This document shows, in pieces, positions 9,011-56,433 of a DNA stretch of 64,000 nt. Origin of the DNA: Chlamydiota bacterium. Its GTDB lineage: Bacteria > Auribacterota > Tritonobacteria > UBA1439. The notes beneath the pieces are model-generated. The model made no database searches and was not told where the DNA came from. It saw only the letters and a program-made list of their open reading frames with translations. Numbering within the stretch: position 1 is the first letter of the stretch; each line of letters opens with the position of its first letter. The stretch spans positions 32,236 to 96,235 of the forward strand of contig JBAXOY010000001.1 in NCBI GenBank assembly GCA_037133055.1. The letters are read 5' to 3'. A program made the translations under genes and the position numbers.

Positions 9011-10611
9011 GATGCCTGCCCCCCCCGATCCCACGGGACCGGCTGCCCCGTCATAAGGAGGCCGAGCATCTCGAGCGTCGCCTCGCCGCGCATCATGACC
9101 CTGCTCAATTTCCCGCGGTGCATCACCGCGAGCCTGTCGCTCAGGGCGCACACCTCGTCGAGATCCTCCGAGACGAGCAGCACCGCCGCCCCGTATTTCC
9201 GCATCGCGAGAAGGGCGCGGCGGATGCCCTCGGCGGCGCCGACGTCGAGACCCCTTGTCGGGTGGACCGCGAGGAGCGCGCGGGGGCTTGACGAAAGCTC
9301 GCGGGCAAGGATGATCTTCTGGAGGTTTCCCCCCGAGAGGAGTCTCACGGGGGCGCGAAGATCGGGAACAGCGATCCCGTAGCGCCTGATCAGCTCGCCC
9401 GCCCACTCCCCGGCCTCCCGCTCATCGAGGAGGATTCCCGAGGCGATCGGCGGTGAGTGGTAGCTCTTGAGGATCAGGTTGTCGACGGCGTCGAGCCCGG
9501 ACGCCGTGCCCACCCTGCTCCGGTCGCCGGGTATGCAGGCAAGGCCGCGGGCGATGATCTCCGAGGGCGACGCCCCCGCCATGTTTTTTCCGAGCAGCGC
9601 GTACCTCCCTCCCGAGGGCTTCCGCAGGCCCGTGAGCACCTCTTCGAGCTCCTTCTGCCCGTTTCCGGAGACGCCCGCGATTCCGAAGATCTCTCCCCCG
9701 CGGAGATCGAGGTCGACGCCGCGGAGCGCGGGGGCGCCGCGCGGGCCGGGCGCCATGAGACCCGTGAGCTCTATGACCGGCAGCCCCTCCGCCCTCACGG
9801 GCGCGGCGGCGGAAGCGGGCGCGCCCGCATGCCCGCGGAATGAAATGGGCAGCCCCCGAGATGCGCGCGCGGGCGTGAGCTCTCTCCCCACCATCAGGCG
9901 GGCGAGTTCGCGCTCGTGTGTCGCGGCGCGGTCAAGGACCGCGACGACCGTCCCTTTCCGGAGGACGGTGATGCGGTCCGATATCTCCATCACCTCGTCG
10001 AGCTTGTGCGAGATGAAGATGACCGCCCGGCCCTTCTGTGCAAACCCGCGCATCGTCTCGAAGAGCGCGCGGGTCTCGCCGGGCGCGAGCACCGCCGTCG
10101 GCTCGTCCAGTATGAGCACGCGCACCTGTCGGAGGAGCATCTTCACGATCTCGACGCGCTGCTGCTCGCCCACCGAGAGCTGCCAGACGGGGGCGCGCAG
10201 GTCCACCGCCAGGCCGTAGCGCCGCGCCACCCTCTCGACACGGTTTTCGATATCCCGCGCGCGGTAAAGGAACGGGAGCCCGGGCATCCCGAGCGCCGCG
10301 TTTTCGGCGACGGTGTGGCGGGGGATGAGCGTGCTGTGCTGATGCACCATCCCGACGCCGAGGGCGATGGCGTCGCGCGGGGAGCCGATCGCCGCGGGGC
10401 GTCCGTCGAGCCGGATCTCCCCCGCGTCGGGACGGTAGAGGCCGGCGAGGATGTTCATCAGGGTGGATTTGCCCGCCCCGTTCTCCCCGAGGAGGGCGTG
10501 GATCTCTCCGCGGCGGACATCGAAATCGACGCCGTCGTTGGCGACGACGACGGGGAAGCTCTTGCGGATGCCGCACATCCGCACCGCCGGCTCGTGTATC
10601 GTTTCGCTCAT
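9007..10611 (-). CDS. ABC transporter ATP-binding protein with duplicated NBDs (sugar/nucleoside type)
   Basis: Two Walker A/signature sets (GENGAGKST ... LSVGEQQRVEI; second NBD LSGGNLQK). ATG at 10611 (MSETIHE) preferred. Alternative GTG at 10656 has an AAGGAG that abuts the start codon. Confidence 0.8.
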   Translation of the reverse strand: MSETIHEPAVRMCGIRKSFPVVVANDGVDFDVRRGEIHALLGENGAGKSTLMNILAGLYRPDAGEIRLDGRPAAIGSPRDAIALGVGMVHQHSTLIPRHTVAENAALGMPGLPFLYRARDIENRVERVARRYGLAVDLRAPVWQLSVGEQQRVEIVKMLLRQVRVLILDEPTAVLAPGETRALFETMRGFAQKGRAVIFISHKLDEVMEISDRITVLRKGTVVAVLDRAATHERELARLMVGRELTPARASRGLPISFRGHAGAPASAAAPVRAEGLPVIELTGLMAPGPRGAPALRGVDLDLRGGEIFGIAGVSGNGQKELEEVLTGLRKPSGGRYALLGKNMAGASPSEIIARGLACIPGDRSRVGTASGLDAVDNLILKSYHSPPIASGILLDEREAGEWAGELIRRYGIAVPDLRAPVRLLSGGNLQKIILARELSSSPRALLAVHPTRGLDVGAAEGIRRALLAMRKYGAAVLLVSEDLDEVCALSDRLAVMHRGKLSRVMMRGEATLEMLGLLMTGQPVPWDRGGQAS

Positions 10612-10685
10612 GGAATTGGCGAGAGCGTCACCCGGCTCATTCCGTTGCGGTTGCACTCCTTGAGAGTATCATCCTTTTGAGATCT

Positions 10686-10699
10686 GGGATTTGGGATTT
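10686..10699. repeat. (GGGATTT)2 heptanucleotide tandem repeat (locus a)
   Basis: TGGGATTTGGGATTT lies between the SBP stop and the ATPase start of the minus-strand ABC operon. Overlaps the SBP stop codon. Confidence 0.8.
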
Positions 10700-11780
10700 A
10701 TTTCGGTATCCGCCCCTCGACCCCCTCCACGAAATAGCTCATGGTGTAGAGTTCGCGGTCCGTGGGGGCCTTCCCGTCGGGGATCGCCGTCTTCCCCTCC
10801 TGATCCCTGACCGGTCCCCGGAAGACCACGAGCTTCTTCTCCGCGATCTCCTTCTTCTTCTCCGTGACGAGCTTCTTCACCTCCTCCGGAACCATCGGGC
10901 CGAGAGGGGCGATGTCCACGATCCCCGTCTCGATCCCCCACCAGATCGGCTCGTTGCTCCACTTCCCCTCATGGAGATCGGTCGCGATCTTCGTGTAGAG
11001 AGGGACCCAGTTCCAGACGGCGGAGGTCAGGTGGGCCGTCGGGGCGAACCGGCTCATGTCGGTGTTGTACCCGATGCTCCAGACCCCGTGCTCCTGGGCG
11101 GCCTGCTGGGGGCCCGATGAGTCCTGGTGCTGGGCGATCACGTCGGCCCCGACCTCGATAAGGCTCTCCGCTGCCTCCTTCTCCTTTGCCGGGTCGAACC
11201 AGGTATAGGTCCAGACCACCCTGACCTTCGCCCTCGGGTTGACCGATCGGACCCCGAGGGTGAACGCGTTGATGCCGCGGATCACCTCGGGGATCGGGTG
11301 CGCGGCGACATAGCCGATGTCGTTCTTCTTCGTCATCTTCCCCGCGACGATCCCGGTGAGGTAGCGGGCCTGGTACATCCTCCCGAAATAGTTTGACATG
11401 TTGGCGGAGCGCTTCGATCCGGAACAGTGCATGAAGACGGTCTTCGGGTAGTTCTTCGCCGCCTCCTCGCACGGGTCCATGTAGCCGTAGCTCGTCGCGA
11501 AGATCAAATTGAATCCCATCTCCGCGAACTGGGTCATCACGCGCGTCGCGTCCGCCCCCTCCTTCACGTTCTCGACGAACCGGGTCTTCTTCACGAACGG
11601 GAGCTTCTCGATCGACTTCCTCCCCTCGTCGTGGGCCCAGTTCCACCCGGCGTCCCCGACCGGGGCGACGTAGACGAACCCGGCCCGTATCTCCTTCACC
11701 GGCTCGAACGCCCCCAGGGGCGTCCCGGCGCTCCACTGCCATGCGAAGAACGCGACCATGCCGGCGGCCGTCCTTTTCAT
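10698..11780 (-). CDS. BMP-family ABC transporter substrate-binding protein (Med/TmpC-like, purine nucleoside type)
   Basis: Signal peptide [19 protein letters not shown]. Family-typical motifs ([14 protein letters not shown]..., DVIAQHQDS). GGGAGG SD 5 nt upstream of the ATG at 11780. Confidence 0.8.
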
Positions 11781-11941
11781 CTGTTCCTCCCGAATATTTC
11801 GACTCCACGTGCCATCGACGGGAGAGTATAGCATCCGTTCCCTCGCCGCCTCCACCGCGATCTGCCGCAATTCGGGATCTGGCGCGATTTGCTGTGCGGG
11901 TCCACGATCCTAGCTCCGTCTCCACGGGGGCCTTCCGCTTC

Positions 11942-11980
11942 GGGGATTTTTTGGATTTGGGATTTGGGGTTTGGGATTTC
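11942..11980. repeat. Degenerate (GGGATTT)~5 tandem repeat (locus b) in divergent promoter region
   Basis: GGGGATTTTTTGGATTTGGGATTTGGGGTTTGGGATTT. Sits between the SBP start (11780, minus) and the BMC-H start (12080, plus). Confidence 0.8.
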
Positions 11981-12079
11981 CCATCCAGCACTCTCCCCTT
12001 GACCCCCTCCGCGGCGCTGTACTATGATGTGCCCCTGTTTCACATGCGCGCGGCGCACACATCAGCGGAGGATCACACA

Positions 12080-12370
12080 ATGGCCGAAGCACTGGGAATG
12101 ATCGAGACGCGCGGGTTTGCCGCCATGGTGGAGGCGTCGGACGCCATGGTGAAGGCGGCCAAGGTCGAGCTCGTGAGCTACGAGAAGATCGGCGGAGGGT
12201 ACGTCACGGCGATCGTCCGCGGCGATGTCGCGGCGGTGCGCGCGGCGGTGGAGGCCGGGGCGCGGGGCGCGGAGAAGGTGGGAGAGCTCGTCTCCGTCCA
12301 CGTGATACCGAGGCCGCACGTCAACGTGGACACGGTTTTGCCGCTCGGCCGTCCGCATCCGAAGGACTGA
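12080..12370 (+). CDS. Bacterial microcompartment shell hexamer protein (BMC-H; PduA/EutM/CcmK family)
   Basis: [60 protein letters not shown]...[10 protein letters not shown] is near-consensus for PF00936. GGAGGA SD 8 nt upstream. Confidence 0.88.
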
Positions 12371-12410
12371 TCCCGGCCATCCCCTTCTTTTTTCCGTGAA
12401 TCCTTGCCTT

Positions 12411-12440
12411 TTGGGATTTGGGATCTGGGATTTGGGATTT
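12411..12440. repeat. (GGGATTT)4 tandem repeat (locus c), intercistronic
   Basis: GGGATTTGGGATCTGGGATTTGGGATTT between BMC-H stop and BMC-P1 start. Four G3 tracts spaced by 4 nt. Confidence 0.85.
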
Positions 12441-12455
12441 ACCCCGGAGGGGTTC

Positions 12456-12767
12456 ATGCAGCTCGGCAGAGTGGTGGGTTCGGTCGTCTCGACCCGGAAG
12501 AGCGAGAACATCCAGGGGCTGAAGCTCCTCCTGGTCCAGCAGCTCTCCCACGGCGGGAGCGCTCTCAAGAACTACGTCATGGCGGTCGACGTGGTGCAGG
12601 CGGGGACCGGCGACGTGGTGCTCTACTCCGAGGGGAGCTCATGCCGGCAGACCGCCCAGACCGACAAGCGGCCCGTGGACGGGGTCGTCATGGCGATCGT
12701 CGACACGTGGGAAGTCGGAGGCAAAGAGGTCTATTCAAAGTCGCGCGAGGACGGCGCATCGAAATGA
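12456..12767 (+). CDS. BMC vertex pentamer protein (BMC-P; EutN/CcmL/PduN family), paralog 1
   Basis: MQLGRVVGSVVSTRKSENIQGLKLLLVQQ... matches PF03319 N-terminus. GGAGGGG SD 5 nt upstream. Confidence 0.8.
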   Translation: MQLGRVVGSVVSTRKSENIQGLKLLLVQQLSHGGSALKNYVMAVDVVQAGTGDVVLYSEGSSCRQTAQTDKRPVDGVVMAIVDTWEVGGKEVYSKSREDGASK

Positions 12768-13036
12768 AAATCGGGAAAGTAATCGGCACGGTGGTGGCGA
12801 CCCGGAAGGTGGAGTCGCTGAACGGCGTCAAGCTCCTCCTCGTCCAGCCGCTCGACGAAGACGGAAAGCCCGCGGGCGAGCCCGTCGTCGCCTGCGACAG
12901 CCAGCAGTCCGGCCCCGGGGAGACCGTCTTCTTCATCGGCGGCCGCGAGGCGTCGCTGCCCCTGCCGGAGCCTTTCAATCCCGCCGACGCGGCCATCACC
13001 GGGATCATCGACGCCGTGACAAAGGACGCCCCATGA
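12764..13036 (+). CDS. BMC vertex pentamer protein (BMC-P), paralog 2
   Basis: MKIGKVIGTVVATRKVESLNGVKLLLVQPL... ATGA start/stop overlap with paralog 1. Confidence 0.8.
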   Translation: MKIGKVIGTVVATRKVESLNGVKLLLVQPLDEDGKPAGEPVVACDSQQSGPGETVFFIGGREASLPLPEPFNPADAAITGIIDAVTKDAP

Positions 13037-13362
13037 AGATCGGCACCGTCATCGGCACGGTGGTGGCGACCCTGAAGCCCGAGGGGTTCAACGGCCGCAA
13101 GCTCCTCCTCGTCCGCCCCGAGGACCCGTACGGGAAGAAGACCGAGACCCCGGTGATTGCCGTGGACACGGTCTCTGCGGGGGAGGGCGACCGGGTGATC
13201 TTCGTGGACGAGGGGAACTCCGCGCGGCAGGTGCTGGACTGGAAGGACGGCTGCGTGCGCGCCGTCATCGTGGGCTACATCGACGAGATCGACATCCCAC
13301 GAAATCCCAAATCCCCGGATTCAAATCCCAAATCCCAAATCCCGAATCCCAAGAAGAAGTAG
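13033..13362 (+). CDS. BMC vertex pentamer protein (BMC-P), paralog 3, with repeat-encoded C-terminal tail
   Basis: MKIGTVIGTVVATLKPEGFNGRKLLLVRPED... ATGA overlap with paralog 2. Last ~21 aa (PRNPKSPDSNPKSQIPNPKKK) are encoded by the (AAATCCC)n repeat. Confidence 0.75.
   Translation: MKIGTVIGTVVATLKPEGFNGRKLLLVRPEDPYGKKTETPVIAVDTVSAGEGDRVIFVDEGNSARQVLDWKDGCVRAVIVGYIDEIDIPRNPKSPDSNPKSQIPNPKKK
13302..13352. repeat. (AAATCCC)~7 tandem repeat (locus d; reverse orientation of GGGATTT)
   Basis: AAATCCCAAATCCCCGGATTCAAATCCCAAATCCCAAATCCCGAATCCCAA. Inside the 3' end of BMC-P3. Confidence 0.85.
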
Positions 13363-13495
13363 GTTCCCGCTATGCCTCTTCTGTGACGCCAAGGGTGCCT
13401 TGCGTCGTCGGGATTTCGCTTCCGCTGATTGAGAAGACCCTCCAGGAGAGGGGACTGCCGGGGACCCGGATAGGAAGAGAAGGGTGTGTCTCTTT

Positions 13496-13522
13496 GATTT
13501 GGGATTTGGGATTTGGGATTTT
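13496..13522. repeat. (GGGATTT)~3.5 tandem repeat (locus e), inverted relative to locus d
   Basis: GATTTGGGATTTGGGATTTGGGATTTT. Overlaps the proS stop codon (minus strand). Confidence 0.85.
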
Positions 13523-15236
13523 ATTCCAGTGCCCGCCGCACCATCCCCGCGATCTCATCTGCGGCGCCCCCCATGTCGACGAGCCGCGCATCCTTCTCGC
13601 CCCGGACCTTCAGCTCAACCTTCCCCTGCGCGAGACCCTTCGGCCCGACGACGACCCTGAGCGGGATGCCGACGAGGTCGGCGTCCTTGAACTTCACCCC
13701 CGGCCGCTCGTCCCTGTCGTCGAGGAGCACCTCCACCCCCCGCACCTCGAGGGCGGCGCAGAGCTCCCCGGCGGCGCGTATCGTCGGCTCGTCCGTCACC
13801 TTCATCGCGATGATCTCGACGTGGTACGGCGCGATGGCCATCGGCCATATGATCCCGTCGGCGTCGTGGTGCTGCTCGATCGCGGCGGCGACGGTCCGTG
13901 TGACGCCGATGCCGTAGCAGCCCATGACGAACGGCTTCGCCGCCCCGTCCTCGTCCGAGAACGTCGCCCCCATCGACTCGCTGTACTTCCTGCCCAGCTT
14001 GAAGATCTGCCCGACCTCGATCCCGCGGTACGCCGTGAGCGGCGCGCCGCACCTCGGGCACCCGTCGCCCTCCCGGCTCACGGCGAGGTCGTGGTACTCC
14101 GCGGCGGTAAAATCGCGACCCTCGCTCACCCCCGCGAGGTGATGGTCGGTCCGGTTCGCCCCCGTGACGCCGTCCCGCATCCCCTTCACCGTGCGGTCGG
14201 CGATGACGAGGACCCCTTTGAGGCCGAGGGGCCCCGCGAAGCCGACCTCGGCCCCCGTGACTTTCCGGATCGCCGCCTCGTCGGCCAGCTCCAGCCCGGC
14301 GCGGCCGAGGGCCTTGCCGAGCTTCGGCTCGCTCACATCCCTGTCGCCGCGGATGAGCACCGCGACCGTCTCCTCCCCCGCGCGGTAGAGCAGCGTTTTG
14401 ATGAGCCGGTCCGGCGTCACGCCGAGGAACGCCGTCACCTCCTCGACCGTCTTCCTCCCCGGGGTGTGGACCTCGCGGAGCTCCGCCTCTTCGCGCTCCT
14501 CCGCAGGCGGCACCGCGCCGGTCGCCGTGTCGGTCGTCGCGGCGTAGCCGCAGGCCTCCGACGGGCACGAGATCACCACGGACTCTCCCGTCTCGGCGAG
14601 CACCATGAACTCGTGCGTGTCCTTCCCCCCCATGAGGCCGGGGTCGGCGAGCACCGCCCTGAAGGTGAGCCCGCACCGCCTGAAGATGCGGGAGTACACT
14701 TCGTGCATGCGCAGGTAGTACTCCTCGAGCGACGCTGCGTCCCGGTGGAATGAATAGGCGTCCTTCATCGTGAACTCTCTCCCGCGCATCACGCCGAAGC
14801 GCGGCCGCACCTCGTCCCGGAACTTGGTCTGTATCTGGTACAGGCAGAGCGGCAGCTCGCGGTAAGAGCGCACCTCGCCCCGCACCGTCGCGGTGATGAC
14901 CTCCTCGTGCGTGGGCCCGAGCGCGAACTCCCTGTCGTGCCGGTCCTTGAGGCGCATGAGCTCCTTGCCGTACTCGTCCCAGCGCCCGCTCTCGCGCCAG
15001 AGCTCCGCGGGGCTCAGGATGGGGAGGAGCAGCTCCTGCGCGCCCGCGCGGTCCATCTCCTCGCGCACGATGCGCTCGACCTTCCTGATGCTCCGCCACC
15101 CGAGCGGGAGGTAGGTGTAGACCCCCGCGCCGAGCTTCCGCATCATCCCCGCGCGAAGCATCAGCCTGTGGCTGGCGATCTCGGCGTCCGCGGGGCTCTC
15201 TTTCAATGTCGGTATGAATGCGTGTGTCCATTTCAT
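13521..15236 (-). CDS. proS: Proline--tRNA ligase
   Basis: Full-length class II aaRS with bacterial-type editing domain. Strong family similarity (MKWTHAFIPTLKE..., FTMKDAYSFH, GCYGIGVTR). Confidence 0.92.
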   Translation of the reverse strand: MKWTHAFIPTLKESPADAEIASHRLMLRAGMMRKLGAGVYTYLPLGWRSIRKVERIVREEMDRAGAQELLLPILSPAELWRESGRWDEYGKELMRLKDRHDREFALGPTHEEVITATVRGEVRSYRELPLCLYQIQTKFRDEVRPRFGVMRGREFTMKDAYSFHRDAASLEEYYLRMHEVYSRIFRRCGLTFRAVLADPGLMGGKDTHEFMVLAETGESVVISCPSEACGYAATTDTATGAVPPAEEREEAELREVHTPGRKTVEEVTAFLGVTPDRLIKTLLYRAGEETVAVLIRGDRDVSEPKLGKALGRAGLELADEAAIRKVTGAEVGFAGPLGLKGVLVIADRTVKGMRDGVTGANRTDHHLAGVSEGRDFTAAEYHDLAVSREGDGCPRCGAPLTAYRGIEVGQIFKLGRKYSESMGATFSDEDGAAKPFVMGCYGIGVTRTVAAAIEQHHDADGIIWPMAIAPYHVEIIAMKVTDEPTIRAAGELCAALEVRGVEVLLDDRDERPGVKFKDADLVGIPLRVVVGPKGLAQGKVELKVRGEKDARLVDMGGAADEIAGMVRRALE

Positions 15237-15246
15237 GGCATTTTTC

Positions 15247-16299
15247 CTACTCCACCGTCACCTTCTCCGTCGCCACGGCGAGCGCGGTCTCGGCGCGCGC
15301 GATCGAGTGGAGCGGGATCAGGGCGAGGTGGATGGTGTAGATGCCCGGGTGCGTCGCGGGGTCTATCACGGCGTCGACAAGGGTTTTGTAGACGGGCAGC
15401 CTGATCCCATCCGGGTCGCTGATGAAGGGGATGACTCCGGAGGTGATCCTGCCCCTCTTCGTGAGCGAATATTTCTTTCCGTCGGGCGCAATGATCACGG
15501 CGTATCCCTTCACGGCCGCCGGCAGAGGCTGTGCGATGGCATCGAGCGAAAACTTCTCCCCCGCCCTGACCTTCCTCCCGCTCGGCGCCGCGTACAGGGG
15601 TGCAAGGGGTTTAAGGCCCAGCATCTTTCTCGCCTCCGCAGGGGTGGCGATCGGCCGCTTCAGGGCGCGCGCGATCGAGACCGCCTGCCGCAGGTAGTCG
15701 AGGTTGACGGGATTCCCCTTGTAGGGCCACGCGCGGCTCTCGCGGAGGCCGAGGCGGAGGTGACCGCCTTCCCGGATGATCTTCCGCATCGCCTCGATCG
15801 GCGCCTTGCCGCCTGCGGGCGAGAACAGGGTCCTCCTCCCCTGCGCGGCGCAGAGCTCGATCCGGCCGTTGCATCGCGCCCACTCGATGACCTCGGTCGT
15901 CGCCCCCGCGAGATCGACGTCGAGAATGACGGCGGGCGCCGCCTGGAGCACGCCCTTCACGACCTCCCGGTAGTTCGCGAGGCTCCGGTCGTAGCGGCAG
16001 CCCTCCGGTCCGCTCTCCGGCGCGAGCGGCTGCACGCGCACGACGGTGGCTCCGATACGAAGGCACTCCCCCACCTCCCCGAAATAGTCGCGCGGGCGCG
16101 TCGGGGCCTCGGCGCAGGGGGCGCTCCCCGGCTCCGGCACCAGCGCCACCTCGATGATGAGCGGCGCAGGCCCGCGTTTCGCATGCTTCGCGGGCGCGGA
16201 TTTCGGCATCTTCACGAGCCGGGGCTGCGGATTGTTCTCGGCCCGCGCGCACGCGTAGAGCAAAGCGGCGGCACAAAGAACGGCGGCCGACCTTCTCAT
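15247..16299 (-). CDS. Hypothetical secreted/lipoprotein; weak resemblance to DUF849/BKACE-like TIM-barrel proteins
   Basis: N-terminal signal peptide with Cys (LLYAC). No confident family assignment from sequence alone. Confidence 0.4.
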   Translation of the reverse strand: MRRSAAVLCAAALLYACARAENNPQPRLVKMPKSAPAKHAKRGPAPLIIEVALVPEPGSAPCAEAPTRPRDYFGEVGECLRIGATVVRVQPLAPESGPEGCRYDRSLANYREVVKGVLQAAPAVILDVDLAGATTEVIEWARCNGRIELCAAQGRRTLFSPAGGKAPIEAMRKIIREGGHLRLGLRESRAWPYKGNPVNLDYLRQAVSIARALKRPIATPAEARKMLGLKPLAPLYAAPSGRKVRAGEKFSLDAIAQPLPAAVKGYAVIIAPDGKKYSLTKRGRITSGVIPFISDPDGIRLPVYKTLVDAVIDPATHPGIYTIHLALIPLHSIARAETALAVATEKVTVE

Positions 16300-16849: not shown

Positions 16850-17563
16850 CTATCTGGTGCCGTGCAGGTATGCGCGTCGTTCGGTCTCGGGCAGTTTTTC
16901 GATGGCGTAGCGCAGCATGGTTCGGGGCATTTCCTTGTAGTGTCGCGCCAGGAACTGTTCCTCTGTATCCGGGTTTCTCTTGCCCACCTCGCGCACCATC
17001 CACCCCGCGGCCTTGTGGATCAGGTCCTCCCGGTCATACAGCAGCAATCCCGCGACCGCCAGGGTATCCGCGAAGTCATTTCTCTTTACGAAGTGAAACG
17101 TGGACATAATGGCGATTCTTCGCTCCCACATATTTTTCGACCGCGCGAGCCGGTAGAGGGGCTTTCTGTCTCGCCTAAACAAGTGCGCCCCCACAATATG
17201 CTCCGCAGAACAATCGACCAGATCCCAACTGTTGATGTGGGCCGTGTGGTTCAAGTACGCGCGGTAGACAGCTTTCTTCTCGCCGGTCCCTCGGGACGAG
17301 GAATACCGCGCGACGAGTATCAGCAGGGCAAGGAGTCGGGCTTCATGGAAGGGGGATTTCAGTAATCCCAGGGCTTCGTCGAGGGATATTTCCCTGTACT
17401 CCCCGCAGCATTGTCTGAGGGTCGGGACACGGATGCCGAGGAACGTATCTCCTTCCCCGTATTCTCCCTTTCCCGTCCTGAAGAATCGCCGCGACTGGGT
17501 CGCGACGCCGGGATCGCCCAGTTCACGCAACCTGCGCACAATCTGCCCGGTGTGGACGCTCAT
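16850..17563 (-). CDS. DNA alkylation repair enzyme (AlkD/AlkC-like HEAT-repeat glycosylase family)
   Basis: Family-level similarity to PF08713 across the full length (…WDLVDCSAEHIVGAHL…, …GWMVREVGKRNP…). Confidence 0.7.
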   Translation of the reverse strand: MSVHTGQIVRRLRELGDPGVATQSRRFFRTGKGEYGEGDTFLGIRVPTLRQCCGEYREISLDEALGLLKSPFHEARLLALLILVARYSSSRGTGEKKAVYRAYLNHTAHINSWDLVDCSAEHIVGAHLFRRDRKPLYRLARSKNMWERRIAIMSTFHFVKRNDFADTLAVAGLLLYDREDLIHKAAGWMVREVGKRNPDTEEQFLARHYKEMPRTMLRYAIEKLPETERRAYLHGTR

Positions 17564-17958
17564 CGCGCCTCACGGGGAACACTTTTCCTCCGGCCACATC
17601 TCCCGCGTGTGCCCACCCCATAGGGAGAGGACTGTTCTCTCATCATCCGAATACAGTACGAATTAAGGCTCTGGCCCGCGCGCGCGGCGCGAATCGCCAA
17701 TTCCTTGTGCATTTCTTTTCCGACGCGCACGACAAATTTCCCGGAATAGTCCGATCGGACGGTGGGCGTCGGCAATGGATCGCCGTCATCCTCATGGATC
17801 TTCAGCCATTCGTCCACGGTTCGGCAGAGATCCCCGTAGACCTCCGATTCGACAGGGCCATGAACGCCCCCTAACATCAAGCCGGGACAGGTGCCTACAT
17901 AGCATTGATCTTCCTCCGACCACTCCACGATCTTCAGATACCGGTCGCTCGGTTTCAT
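17560..17958 (-). CDS. hicB: HicB-family antitoxin
   Basis: N-terminal HicB/RNase-H-like fold (MKPSDRYLKIVEWSEEDQCYVGTCPGL) plus C-terminal RHH-like SGKFVVRVGKEMHKELAIRAARAGQSLNSY. 4-nt overlap with hicA. Confidence 0.7.
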   Translation of the reverse strand: MKPSDRYLKIVEWSEEDQCYVGTCPGLMLGGVHGPVESEVYGDLCRTVDEWLKIHEDDGDPLPTPTVRSDYSGKFVVRVGKEMHKELAIRAARAGQSLNSYCIRMMREQSSPYGVGTRGRCGRRKSVPREAR

Positions 17959-18149
17959 GGCGCCACCTCTCGAATAGCCTTCAGCAGTTCTCTTTCCTGA
18001 TATCGCTTCGCATCCTGTCCCGGCCGGCCGCTGATGGTGATCTTGACTCCTTTCGAATGTTTGAAATTGCGATGGCTTCCCTTGCCGCCGCGATTGATGA
18101 AGCCAGCCCTCTCCAGATCTCGAACAAGCTCCCTGATCTTTCTCGGCAT
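17955..18149 (-). CDS. hicA: HicA-family mRNA interferase toxin
   Basis: 64 aa with GSHRNFKH motif characteristic of YcfA/HicA. Toxin-first gene order typical of hicAB. Confidence 0.7.
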   Translation of the reverse strand: MPRKIRELVRDLERAGFINRGGKGSHRNFKHSKGVKITISGRPGQDAKRYQERELLKAIREVAP

Positions 18150-56407: not shown

Positions 56408-56433
56408 CAAATCCCAAAACCCAAATCCCAAAA
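56408..56433. repeat. (AAATCCC)~3 tandem repeat (locus f)
   Basis: CAAATCCCAAAACCCAAATCCCAAAAG. Begins 3 nt after the efp stop. Confidence 0.8.

What the first reader, a model, noticed from the sequence alone, without database searches (positions are those of the whole stretch)
12080..13362. Orphan BMC shell locus: one BMC-H plus three tandem BMC-P paralogs and no enzyme or cargo genes
The four shell genes are tightly coupled; three junctions are ATGA overlaps. The locus is bounded by a nucleoside ABC transporter on one side and proS on the other. No signature enzyme (aldehyde dehydrogenase, PTAC, glycyl-radical enzyme, RuBisCO, etc.), no BMC-T, and no obvious encapsulation-peptide carrier lies within 64 kb.

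Characterised BMC loci with three BMC-P genes are, to my knowledge, uncommon. A three-to-one P:H gene ratio is the inverse of the required shell stoichiometry. This may be a satellite shell locus serving a main locus elsewhere, or a minimal shell system of unknown cargo.
Basis: partly seen in the sequence, partly recalled or inferred. Interest (0 to 1): 0.75.

Follow-up and report, generated by a model that had tools for sequence, protein, structure and literature searches.

The report
Split-off microcompartment shell operon, Auribacterota
Four real, conserved microcompartment shell genes (one hexamer, three pentamer types) sit apart from their enzymes, and they are best read as the shell half of a known, split sugar-phosphate/aldehyde microcompartment, so the finding is ordinary.

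Summary
The four genes are real: one BMC-H (12080-12370) and three BMC-P (12456-12767, 12764-13036, 13033-13362). Only two junctions are ATGA overlaps. H and P1 are separated by an 85-nt spacer. No BMC enzyme or BMC-T gene lies in the window or in the flanks read on either side, about 75 kb in all.

The interpretation needs correcting. A BMC-P triplet is a published hallmark of SPU, HO, PVM, ACI and FRAG microcompartments, not a rarity. P1, P2 and P3 are three ancient paralogs, each orthologous to one pentamer of full SPU loci in other phyla. All four genes are under strong purifying selection (dN/dS 0.01-0.23).

The organism belongs to a Candidatus Auribacterota clade, a phylum already reported to carry microcompartments.

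The window's proteins are identical to consecutively numbered GenBank proteins MEI6632209-MEI6632266. In the same accession series, under the same organism label, a second BMC-H and an acylating aldehyde dehydrogenase share one 18.5-kb contig. Relatives carry that locus as Tdp-H-P-AldDh-PduS-Ts-class II aldolase, without P2 or P3 types.

So this is most likely the complementary shell operon of a split SPU5/HO-like metabolosome. Same-assembly membership is inferred, not proven. It is a new member of a known kind, of low interest.

The parts
11999..12028 (+). Promoter-like site TTGACC-18 nt-TATGAT, about 50 nt upstream of BMC-H
   Evidence: It is the only sigma-70-like site in 11700-13700. The same TTGACC...TACTATGAT block is conserved in L070, which shares about 83% nucleotide identity over the aligned blocks of this region. 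Function is not shown.
12080..12370 (+). BMC-H hexamer shell protein, 96 aa, preceded by GGAGG at 12067-12071
   Evidence: PF00936, E 2.3e-31. Identical to GenBank MEI6632218.1. 98% identical to L004 with dN/dS 0.014 at dS of about 1.
12410..12440 (+). (GGGATTT)4 heptamer array inside the 85-nt H-P1 spacer, just upstream of the P1 ribosome-binding site (GGAGG 12446-12450)
   Evidence: An array lies at the same position in L004 (9576-9603). It is absent from L070. Its role is unknown.
12456..12767 (+). BMC-P1 pentamer protein, 103 aa (the type that follows BMC-H in SPU loci)
   Evidence: PF03319, E 4.8e-27. Identical to MEI6632219.1. Orthologous group shown. dN/dS 0.06-0.23.
12764..13036 (+). 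BMC-P2 pentamer protein, 90 aa; ATGA overlap with P1 (the type that follows the aldehyde dehydrogenase in SPU loci)
   Evidence: PF03319, E 2.7e-27. Identical to MEI6632220.1. 55-67% identical to the post-AldDh pentamer of Atribacterota and Spirochaetota loci. dN/dS 0.03-0.10.
13033..13362 (+). BMC-P3 pentamer protein, 109 aa; ATGA overlap with P2. The domain ends near 13296; the tail PRNPKSPDSNPKSQIPNPKKK is encoded by a heptamer array.
   Evidence: PF03319, E 8.6e-24, residues 1-84. Identical to MEI6632221.1. The tail differs in L070, is not recovered as similar sequence in L003 or L004, and is only partly shared by L005. dN/dS 0.07-0.11 over the domain.
13298..13521 (.). Convergent P3/proS intergenic region. 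Inverted heptamer arrays (13298-13352, C-rich on +; 13494-13521, G-rich on +) pair into a long stem.
   Evidence: MFE -97.5 kcal/mol, z -3.4 against 200 shuffles. No Rfam match. A terminator or stabiliser role is inferred only.
11949..11979 (+). Heptamer array just upstream of the promoter-like site

Best explanation
This is an expressed-looking four-gene operon, H-P1-P2-P3, that encodes the facet hexamer and the full pentamer triplet of a catabolic microcompartment. The enzymes and trimeric shell proteins are encoded at a second locus of the same genome. That second locus is predicted to read Tdp-H2-P-AldDh-PduS-Ts-class II aldolase, an SPU5/HO-like arrangement. It carries only a P1-type pentamer, so the window's operon supplies the P2 and P3 types that complete the triplet, plus a second hexamer.

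The inferred working is as follows. Cargo with amphipathic encapsulation helices (N-terminal on the aldehyde dehydrogenase, C-terminal on the aldolase) aggregates. Hexamers and trimers tile around it and pentamers cap the vertices. The shell confines an aldehyde made from a sugar phosphate until the acylating dehydrogenase converts it to an acyl-CoA.

Shown: gene identity, orthology, purifying selection, absence of cargo nearby, and the existence of the second locus in the same accession series. Inferred: same-assembly membership, co-assembly of the two loci's products, and the substrate.
For: - Pfam matches over the full models.
- P1, P2 and P3 fall into three separate orthologous clades. Each also contains the pentamers of canonical SPU loci (H-P-P-PduS-T-AldDh-P2-P3-RpiB-DeoC-PTAC) from Atribacterota, Spirochaetota and others.
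- dN/dS is 0.014 for H and 0.03-0.23 for the P genes at dS 0.8-2.4, measured against three other species.
- The same synteny (Bmp transporter | H-P1-P2-P3 | proS-BKACE) recurs in a 70.7% GC sister lineage found on more than 20 contigs. The P triplet sits beside proS in L003, L004 and L005.
- Window proteins equal GenBank MEI6632209, 217-222, 260 and 266, in gene order.
- MEI6633860 (a second BMC-H, 93% identical) and MEI6633862 (an acylating AldDh with an EP-like N-terminus, MNLTEAQIAAIVENVITRL) share one 18,534-bp contig under the same organism label.
- The closest AldDh loci are L075 (heptamer arrays present; tetranucleotide r 0.88-0.90 to the window, L003 and L005) and L077 (r 0.93 to L070). 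Both read Tdp-H-P-AldDh-PduS-Ts-aldolase II and carry no P2/P3 type. Ca. Tritonobacter has the same layout.
- Literature: BMC-P triplets and split or consolidated loci (PMC8217296, PMC11585597); Auribacterota microcompartments predicted for DNA/deoxyribose breakdown (PMC9324843).
Against: - I could not read the 18.5-kb contig or list the assembly. That MEI6633860/862 belong to the same MAG rests on accession proximity (about 1,640 apart) and an identical organism label. A sibling MAG submitted in the same batch is not excluded.
- No DeoC, RpiB or PTAC gene was located for this genome.
- The six EP-tagged DeoC proteins whose contigs I read all came from other assemblies. A further ten candidates were checked only by cluster look-up, which returned no accessions, so their source stayed unknown.
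- Tetranucleotide similarity discriminates weakly. An unrelated Nitrospiraceae locus reaches r 0.86 with the window.
- There are no expression or assembly data.
Confidence: 0.78

Rival explanations
1. A self-sufficient minimal shell (H plus three pentamers) works independently of any classical enzyme locus. It would enclose unknown cargo or serve a non-metabolic role.
For: No cargo, BMC-T or EP-like helix lies in about 75 kb. The operon has its own promoter-like site. The catalog's FRAG types show that enzyme-remote shell genes exist with unknown function (PMC8217296).
Against: An AldDh-bearing locus with its own H and P is found in the same accession series and in compositionally matching relatives. 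P1-P3 are orthologs of pentamers embedded in enzyme-rich SPU loci. In sister Auribacterota the triplet lies 1.5-6 kb from EP-tagged RpiB and DeoC.
Confidence: 0.1
2. The shell operon is functionally coupled to the adjacent Bmp-family nucleoside ABC transporter, forming a nucleoside/deoxyribose utilisation island. This is compatible with the main explanation.
For: Bmp-H adjacency is conserved in the sister lineage L070-L072. SPU-type compartments are proposed to process deoxyribose phosphate from DNA breakdown (PMC8217296, PMC11585597, PMC9324843).
Against: In L003, L004 and L005 the upstream neighbours are unrelated: a nucleotidyltransferase, an epimerase, and an RNase H-like or unknown gene. 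The transporter is divergently transcribed. No deoxyribose-phosphate aldolase was found for this genome.
Confidence: 0.15
3. The genes are a decaying remnant left after loss of the enzyme genes.
For: Enzymes are absent locally. H is missing next to the triplet in L003 and L005.
Against: All four reading frames are intact, with full-length Pfam matches. dN/dS is 0.01-0.23 at near-saturated dS across four species. A conserved promoter-like block and ribosome-binding sites are present.
Confidence: 0.02

Closest known systems
SPU (sugar phosphate utilisation) microcompartments, especially SPU5-like, as catalogued by Sutter et al. 2021 (PMC8217296) and characterised in PMC11585597
   Same: The shell proteins are the closest relatives. 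H is 75-88% identical, and P1, P2 and P3 are each orthologous to one SPU pentamer. The relatives' enzyme locus has CsoS1D-like Tdp, Ts, an N-terminal-EP AldDh and a class II aldolase with a C-terminal EP-like helix, features the paper lists for SPU5.
   Different: In SPU loci the pentamers are interleaved with AldDh, DERA and RPI in a single locus. Here the H-P-P-P genes stand alone beside housekeeping genes, and no DERA or RPI was found for this genome.
HO microcompartment of Haliangium ochraceum (type I), with pentamer genes in a satellite locus
   Same: Shell genes are split between an enzyme-bearing locus and a distal pentamer-bearing locus. A BMC-P triplet is present. AldDh is related to SPU5/SPU7 and Tdp is CsoS1D- or CcmP-like (PMC8217296).
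   Different: The HO satellite holds two pentamers plus an aldolase. Here the distal locus holds a hexamer and all three pentamer types with no enzyme. The phylum also differs (Auribacterota versus Myxococcota). Sequence relatedness to HO proteins was not tested.
FRAG microcompartments (Sutter et al. 2021)
   Same: Shell genes are remote from recognisable enzymes, a BMC-P triplet is present, and they occur in candidate phyla.
   Different: FRAG is defined by shell-protein clades and the lack of a defined locus organisation. Here the organisation is conserved, and an AldDh locus of SPU/HO type appears to exist in the genome.
Auribacterota microcompartments described by Williams et al. 2022 (PMC9324843)
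   Same: Same phylum-level group. Shell and vertex proteins were noted and a DNA/deoxyribose-to-aldehyde function was predicted. My loci L007 (Ca. Euphemobacter) and L073/L074 (Ca. Tritonobacter) come from those genera.
   Different: That paper does not describe the split arrangement, or the proS-linked H-P1-P2-P3 operon of this higher-GC clade.

Membership tests
BMC shell proteins | A BMC-H with a single PF00936 domain | tested here: met
   E 2.3e-31, model positions 1-75 of 75.
BMC shell proteins | BMC-P with a PF03319 (EutN/CcmL) domain | tested here: met
   Three proteins, E 9e-24 to 3e-27, full model length.
BMC-P triplet (Sutter 2021) | Three co-occurring pentamer paralogs from three distinct phylogenetic clades (gray, orange, plus one of green, blue or purple) | tested here: met
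   NJ trees place P1, P2 and P3 in three separate clades, each shared with SPU loci of other phyla. The catalog's colour names could not be assigned, because its reference set is not available here.
SPU locus | DERA (PF01791) and RPI (PF02502) encoded in the locus | tested here: not met
   Neither is present in the window or its read flanks, about 75 kb in all. Sister Auribacterota do have EP-tagged versions 1.5-6 kb from the triplet.
SPU locus | An acylating aldehyde dehydrogenase (PF00171) in the locus | tested here: not met
   Absent locally (the same calls). A candidate lies elsewhere: MEI6633862.1, beside a second BMC-H.
SPU locus | At least one BMC-Ts | tested here: not met
   The window holds no second PF00936 gene. 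Ts and Tdp genes are present in the relatives' enzyme locus.
Satellite locus (catalog definition) | [quoted passage not shown] | tested here: inconclusive
   This locus itself has both H and P, so it formally qualifies as a main locus. The putative enzyme locus also has H and P.
FRAG | Shell genes scattered over several genomic sites and remote from enzymes | tested here: inconclusive
   Remoteness from enzymes is met. Scattering is seen in relatives, where L003 and L005 lack H beside the triplet. Whole-genome content of this MAG could not be listed.
Functional metabolosome | Encapsulation peptides on cargo, and a physical shell | not testable with these tools
   EP-like helices are seen only on relatives' AldDh, aldolase, DeoC and RpiB, and on P0272.

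The most novel reading that the evidence does not exclude
The separately encoded H-P1-P2-P3 operon is an independently regulated vertex/closure module. The (GGGATTT)n arrays, potential G-quadruplex motifs, sit in the H-P1 spacer, at the operon's ends and in the neighbouring Bmp-transporter spacer. In this reading they set the high-hexamer, low-pentamer expression ratio or couple shell supply to nucleoside import.
Probability: 0.08. Interest if true: 0.5.

Novelty: new member of a known kind. Interest (0 to 1): 0.2.

Why it matters
The value is mainly in annotation. Enzyme-free shell operons in candidate phyla should be read together with distal loci before being called orphan, and BMC-P triplets should not be flagged as unusual.

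For microcompartment researchers, this clade offers a compact natural unit, one hexamer plus all three pentamer types on 1.3 kb. It could be used to ask why triplets exist, a question the SPU paper states is still open. That is a modest opportunity, not a surprise.

Tried and rejected
- I tried to find EP-tagged DeoC in the same genome. I searched with the L006 enzyme and looked up the six most plausible hits. All came from other assemblies.
- A cluster look-up of ten more candidates gave no accessions.
- A high-GC EP-DeoC family sits inside deoB-cdd-deoC-deoA operons (L063, L066, L067). It looked promising on GC content, but its tetranucleotide profile (r 0.68-0.75) does not match the window's lineage.
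- The metagenome scan with Tritonobacter AldDh did not return the JGI sample that holds the 456-kb sister contig.
- Matching contig lengths between the AldDh and BMC-H hit lists found no AldDh on the window's own 166-kb contig.
- ViennaRNA folding with G-quadruplexes allowed gave the same structures as without them.
- Rfam found nothing in 10400-13800.
- Structure prediction was not run, because full-length Pfam matches make it unnecessary.

Full report
**Observation.** The + strand carries four short genes.
- BMC-H lies at 12080-12370 and matches PF00936 at E 2.3e-31.
- Three BMC-P genes lie at 12456-12767, 12764-13036 and 13033-13362. They match PF03319 at E 5e-27, 3e-27 and 9e-24, all over the full model.
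- P1/P2 and P2/P3 share ATGA overlaps.
- H and P1 do not overlap. An 85-nt spacer separates them, holding a (GGGATTT)4 array and a GGAGG ribosome-binding site.
- A sigma-70-like site, TTGACC-18-TATGAT (11999-12028), precedes H. It is conserved in a sister lineage.

**Surroundings.** The window is record positions 99,177-163,176 of contig CAYPDH010000002.1 (166 kb) of MAG GCA_964409435.1.
- Precomputed Pfam annotation of record 89,950-164,943, plus my Pfam run on the uncovered 21.8-28.2 kb stretch, shows transporters, proS, a BKACE-like gene, toxin-antitoxin genes, malic enzyme, EF-P, Ddl and others.
- There is no aldehyde dehydrogenase, PTAC, DeoC, RpiB, PduS-like protein or BMC-T.
- tblastn with SPU cargo proteins found nothing on these stretches.
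- A stringent search for an encapsulation-peptide motif found nothing either.
- The 'no cargo nearby' observation therefore holds for about 75 kb.

**Relatives.** A scan of species-representative genomes with P2 returned 55 loci.
- The closest are Candidatus Auribacterota MAGs L003-L005, with P2 87-90% and ProS 74-79% identical.
- L004 has H-P1-P2-P3. L003 and L005 have P1-P2-P3 without H. In all three the cluster sits next to proS, with an AbiE/AAA insertion in L004.
- A sister lineage at 70.7% GC (L070-L072, H 95% identical, seen on more than 20 contigs) has exactly the window's synteny, from MacB through the Bmp transporter, H-P1-P2-P3, proS and BKACE.
- In Euphemobacter-type Auribacterota (L006, L007, L065, L068, L069) the triplet lies 1.5-6 kb from RpiB and DeoC, each carrying an N-terminal extension that begins with an amphipathic helix.
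- In Atribacterota, Spirochaetota and other phyla, the orthologs are embedded in canonical SPU loci: H-P-P-PduS-T-AldDh-P2-P3-RpiB-DeoC-PTAC.

**Paralogy and selection.** NJ trees place P1, P2 and P3 in three separate clades, each shared with those loci. They are ancient paralogs, not recent tandem copies. Against L003-L005, dN/dS is 0.014 for H, 0.06-0.23 for P1, 0.03-0.10 for P2 and 0.07-0.11 for P3, at dS 0.8-2.4. The genes are being maintained.

**Literature.**
- The 2021 catalog states that BMC-P triplets characterise SPU, HO, ACI, PVM and FRAG types. It states that main and satellite loci form consolidated loci, and that FRAG shell genes lie far from enzymes (PMC8217296).
- The SPU paper states that all SPU loci hold at least a triplet. 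It adds that the reason for multiple pentamer paralogs is unknown (PMC11585597).
- Auribacterota microcompartments have already been reported, with a predicted role in DNA/deoxyribose breakdown (PMC9324843).

**The rest of the genome.** I could not list the MAG, so I used indirect routes.
- In Ca. Tritonobacter, the BMC-H ortholog sits in the locus Tdp-H-P-AldDh-PduS-Ts-class II aldolase.
- A metagenome scan with that AldDh found the same locus type on L075. L075 has 59% GC, carries the heptamer arrays, and has tetranucleotide r 0.88-0.90 to the window, L003 and L005.
- The scan also found it on L077, which has 69.5% GC and r 0.93 to L070.
- Their single pentamer is of the P1 type, and no P2 or P3 type lies nearby.
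- The window's MacB, Bmp, H, P1, P2, P3, ProS, EF-P and Ddl are identical to GenBank proteins MEI6632209, 217, 218, 219, 220, 221, 222, 260 and 266, labelled 'Chlamydiota bacterium'.
- In the same series and under the same label, MEI6633860 and MEI6633862 share one 18,534-bp contig. MEI6633860 is a second BMC-H, 93% identical, with the 'MSE...' signature of main-locus hexamers. MEI6633862 is an acylating AldDh, partial, with an EP-like N-terminus.
- The numbering is plausible for a short contig late in a length-sorted MAG of roughly 3,000 genes. Membership of the same assembly remains an inference.

**Interpretation.** The operon most likely supplies a hexamer and the pentamer triplet to a split SPU5/HO-like metabolosome. 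The main locus contributes the enzymes, the trimers, a second hexamer and one P1-type pentamer. The window's locus contributes the P2 and P3 types.
- The 3:1 gene ratio is not informative about protein ratios.
- The adjacent nucleoside-type transporter fits the proposed substrate source thematically, and the adjacency is conserved in the sister lineage. It is not conserved in L003-L005, so coupling is unproven.
- A relic is excluded by selection.
- An autonomous shell of unknown cargo is not excluded, but it is disfavoured.

**Side observation.** The window holds six (GGGATTT)n arrays, giving 13 pattern matches against 0.01 expected by chance. Five cluster within 3 kb around the operon.
- Array positions recur in L004 (H-P1 spacer, proS 3' end), L005 (P3 3' end) and L075 (PduS-Ts spacer).
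- Arrays are absent from L070-L072.
- The two inverted arrays between P3 and proS pair into a long stem, z -3.4.
- No Rfam family matches.
- From my own knowledge, they resemble in kind the heptameric STRR repeats of cyanobacteria. Their function is unknown.

**Verdict.** The genes are real and functional-looking, but they represent a known design in a phylum where it has already been noted. This is a new member of a known kind, with interest about 0.2.

Noticed in passing
window 10676-10699, 11949-11979, 12410-12440, 13298-13352, 13494-13521, 56408-56433; also L004 9576-9603 and 14198-14225, L005 7006-7048, L075 10552-10579: There are tandem heptamer arrays (GGGATTT)n of 3-7 copies; a full G3N4 quadruplex motif occurs in at least two of them. 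They give 13 matches against 0.01 expected by chance. Five of the six arrays in the window lie within 3 kb of the shell operon. Positions recur in related species but are absent from the 70% GC sister lineage. No Rfam match.
   Followed up: partly
window 13297-13359: The 21-residue C-terminal tail of BMC-P3 (PRNPKSPDSNPKSQIPNPKKK) is the in-frame reading of a heptamer array. The tail differs in L070, is not recovered as similar sequence in L003 or L004, and is partly shared by L005. It is probably a by-product of the repeat, not part of the pentamer fold.
   Followed up: partly
window 13290-13530: Inverted heptamer arrays flanking the convergent P3/proS gap pair into a stem of about 25 bp that encloses about 140 nt (MFE -97.5 kcal/mol, z -3.4). 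It may be a bidirectional terminator or an mRNA stabiliser.
   Followed up: partly
window 15247-16299 (- strand): A BKACE-family (PF05853) protein whose called N-terminus looks like a lipoprotein signal (…AALLYAC…). It is conserved next to proS in L003, L005 and L070-L072. This is odd for a cytosolic acyl-transfer enzyme family, and the start codon may be miscalled.
   Followed up: no
proteins P0011-P0042 (EP-tagged DeoC of Auribacterota-type loci, e.g. L006 5353-6252): Between the N-terminal encapsulation helix and the aldolase domain, these enzymes share a conserved Cys-rich motif (roughly C-x2-C-G-x-C-V). This hints at a metal or Fe-S site in the linker.
   Followed up: no
L063 8386-12218, L066 8341-12260, L067 2943-6794: In a 70-72% GC lineage of different tetranucleotide composition, a DeoC with an encapsulation-type N-terminal helix sits inside a deoB-cdd-deoC-deoA nucleoside catabolism operon. 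No shell gene lies within the flanks read (10 kb upstream; 3-6 kb downstream, where each contig ends).
   Followed up: partly
whole window (GenBank MEI6632209-MEI6632266): GenBank labels the identical proteins 'Chlamydiota bacterium'. The nearest genomes by ProS and shell proteins are labelled Candidatus Auribacterota or Aureabacteria, so the organism label looks imprecise.
   Followed up: partly
window 17560-18149 (- strand); L004 10741-13522: The window has a HicB-family antitoxin with a small upstream partner gene. L004 has an AbiEii/AbiEi toxin-antitoxin pair plus an AAA/DUF4143 gene inserted between P3 and proS. This shows the junction tolerates mobile insertions.
   Followed up: no
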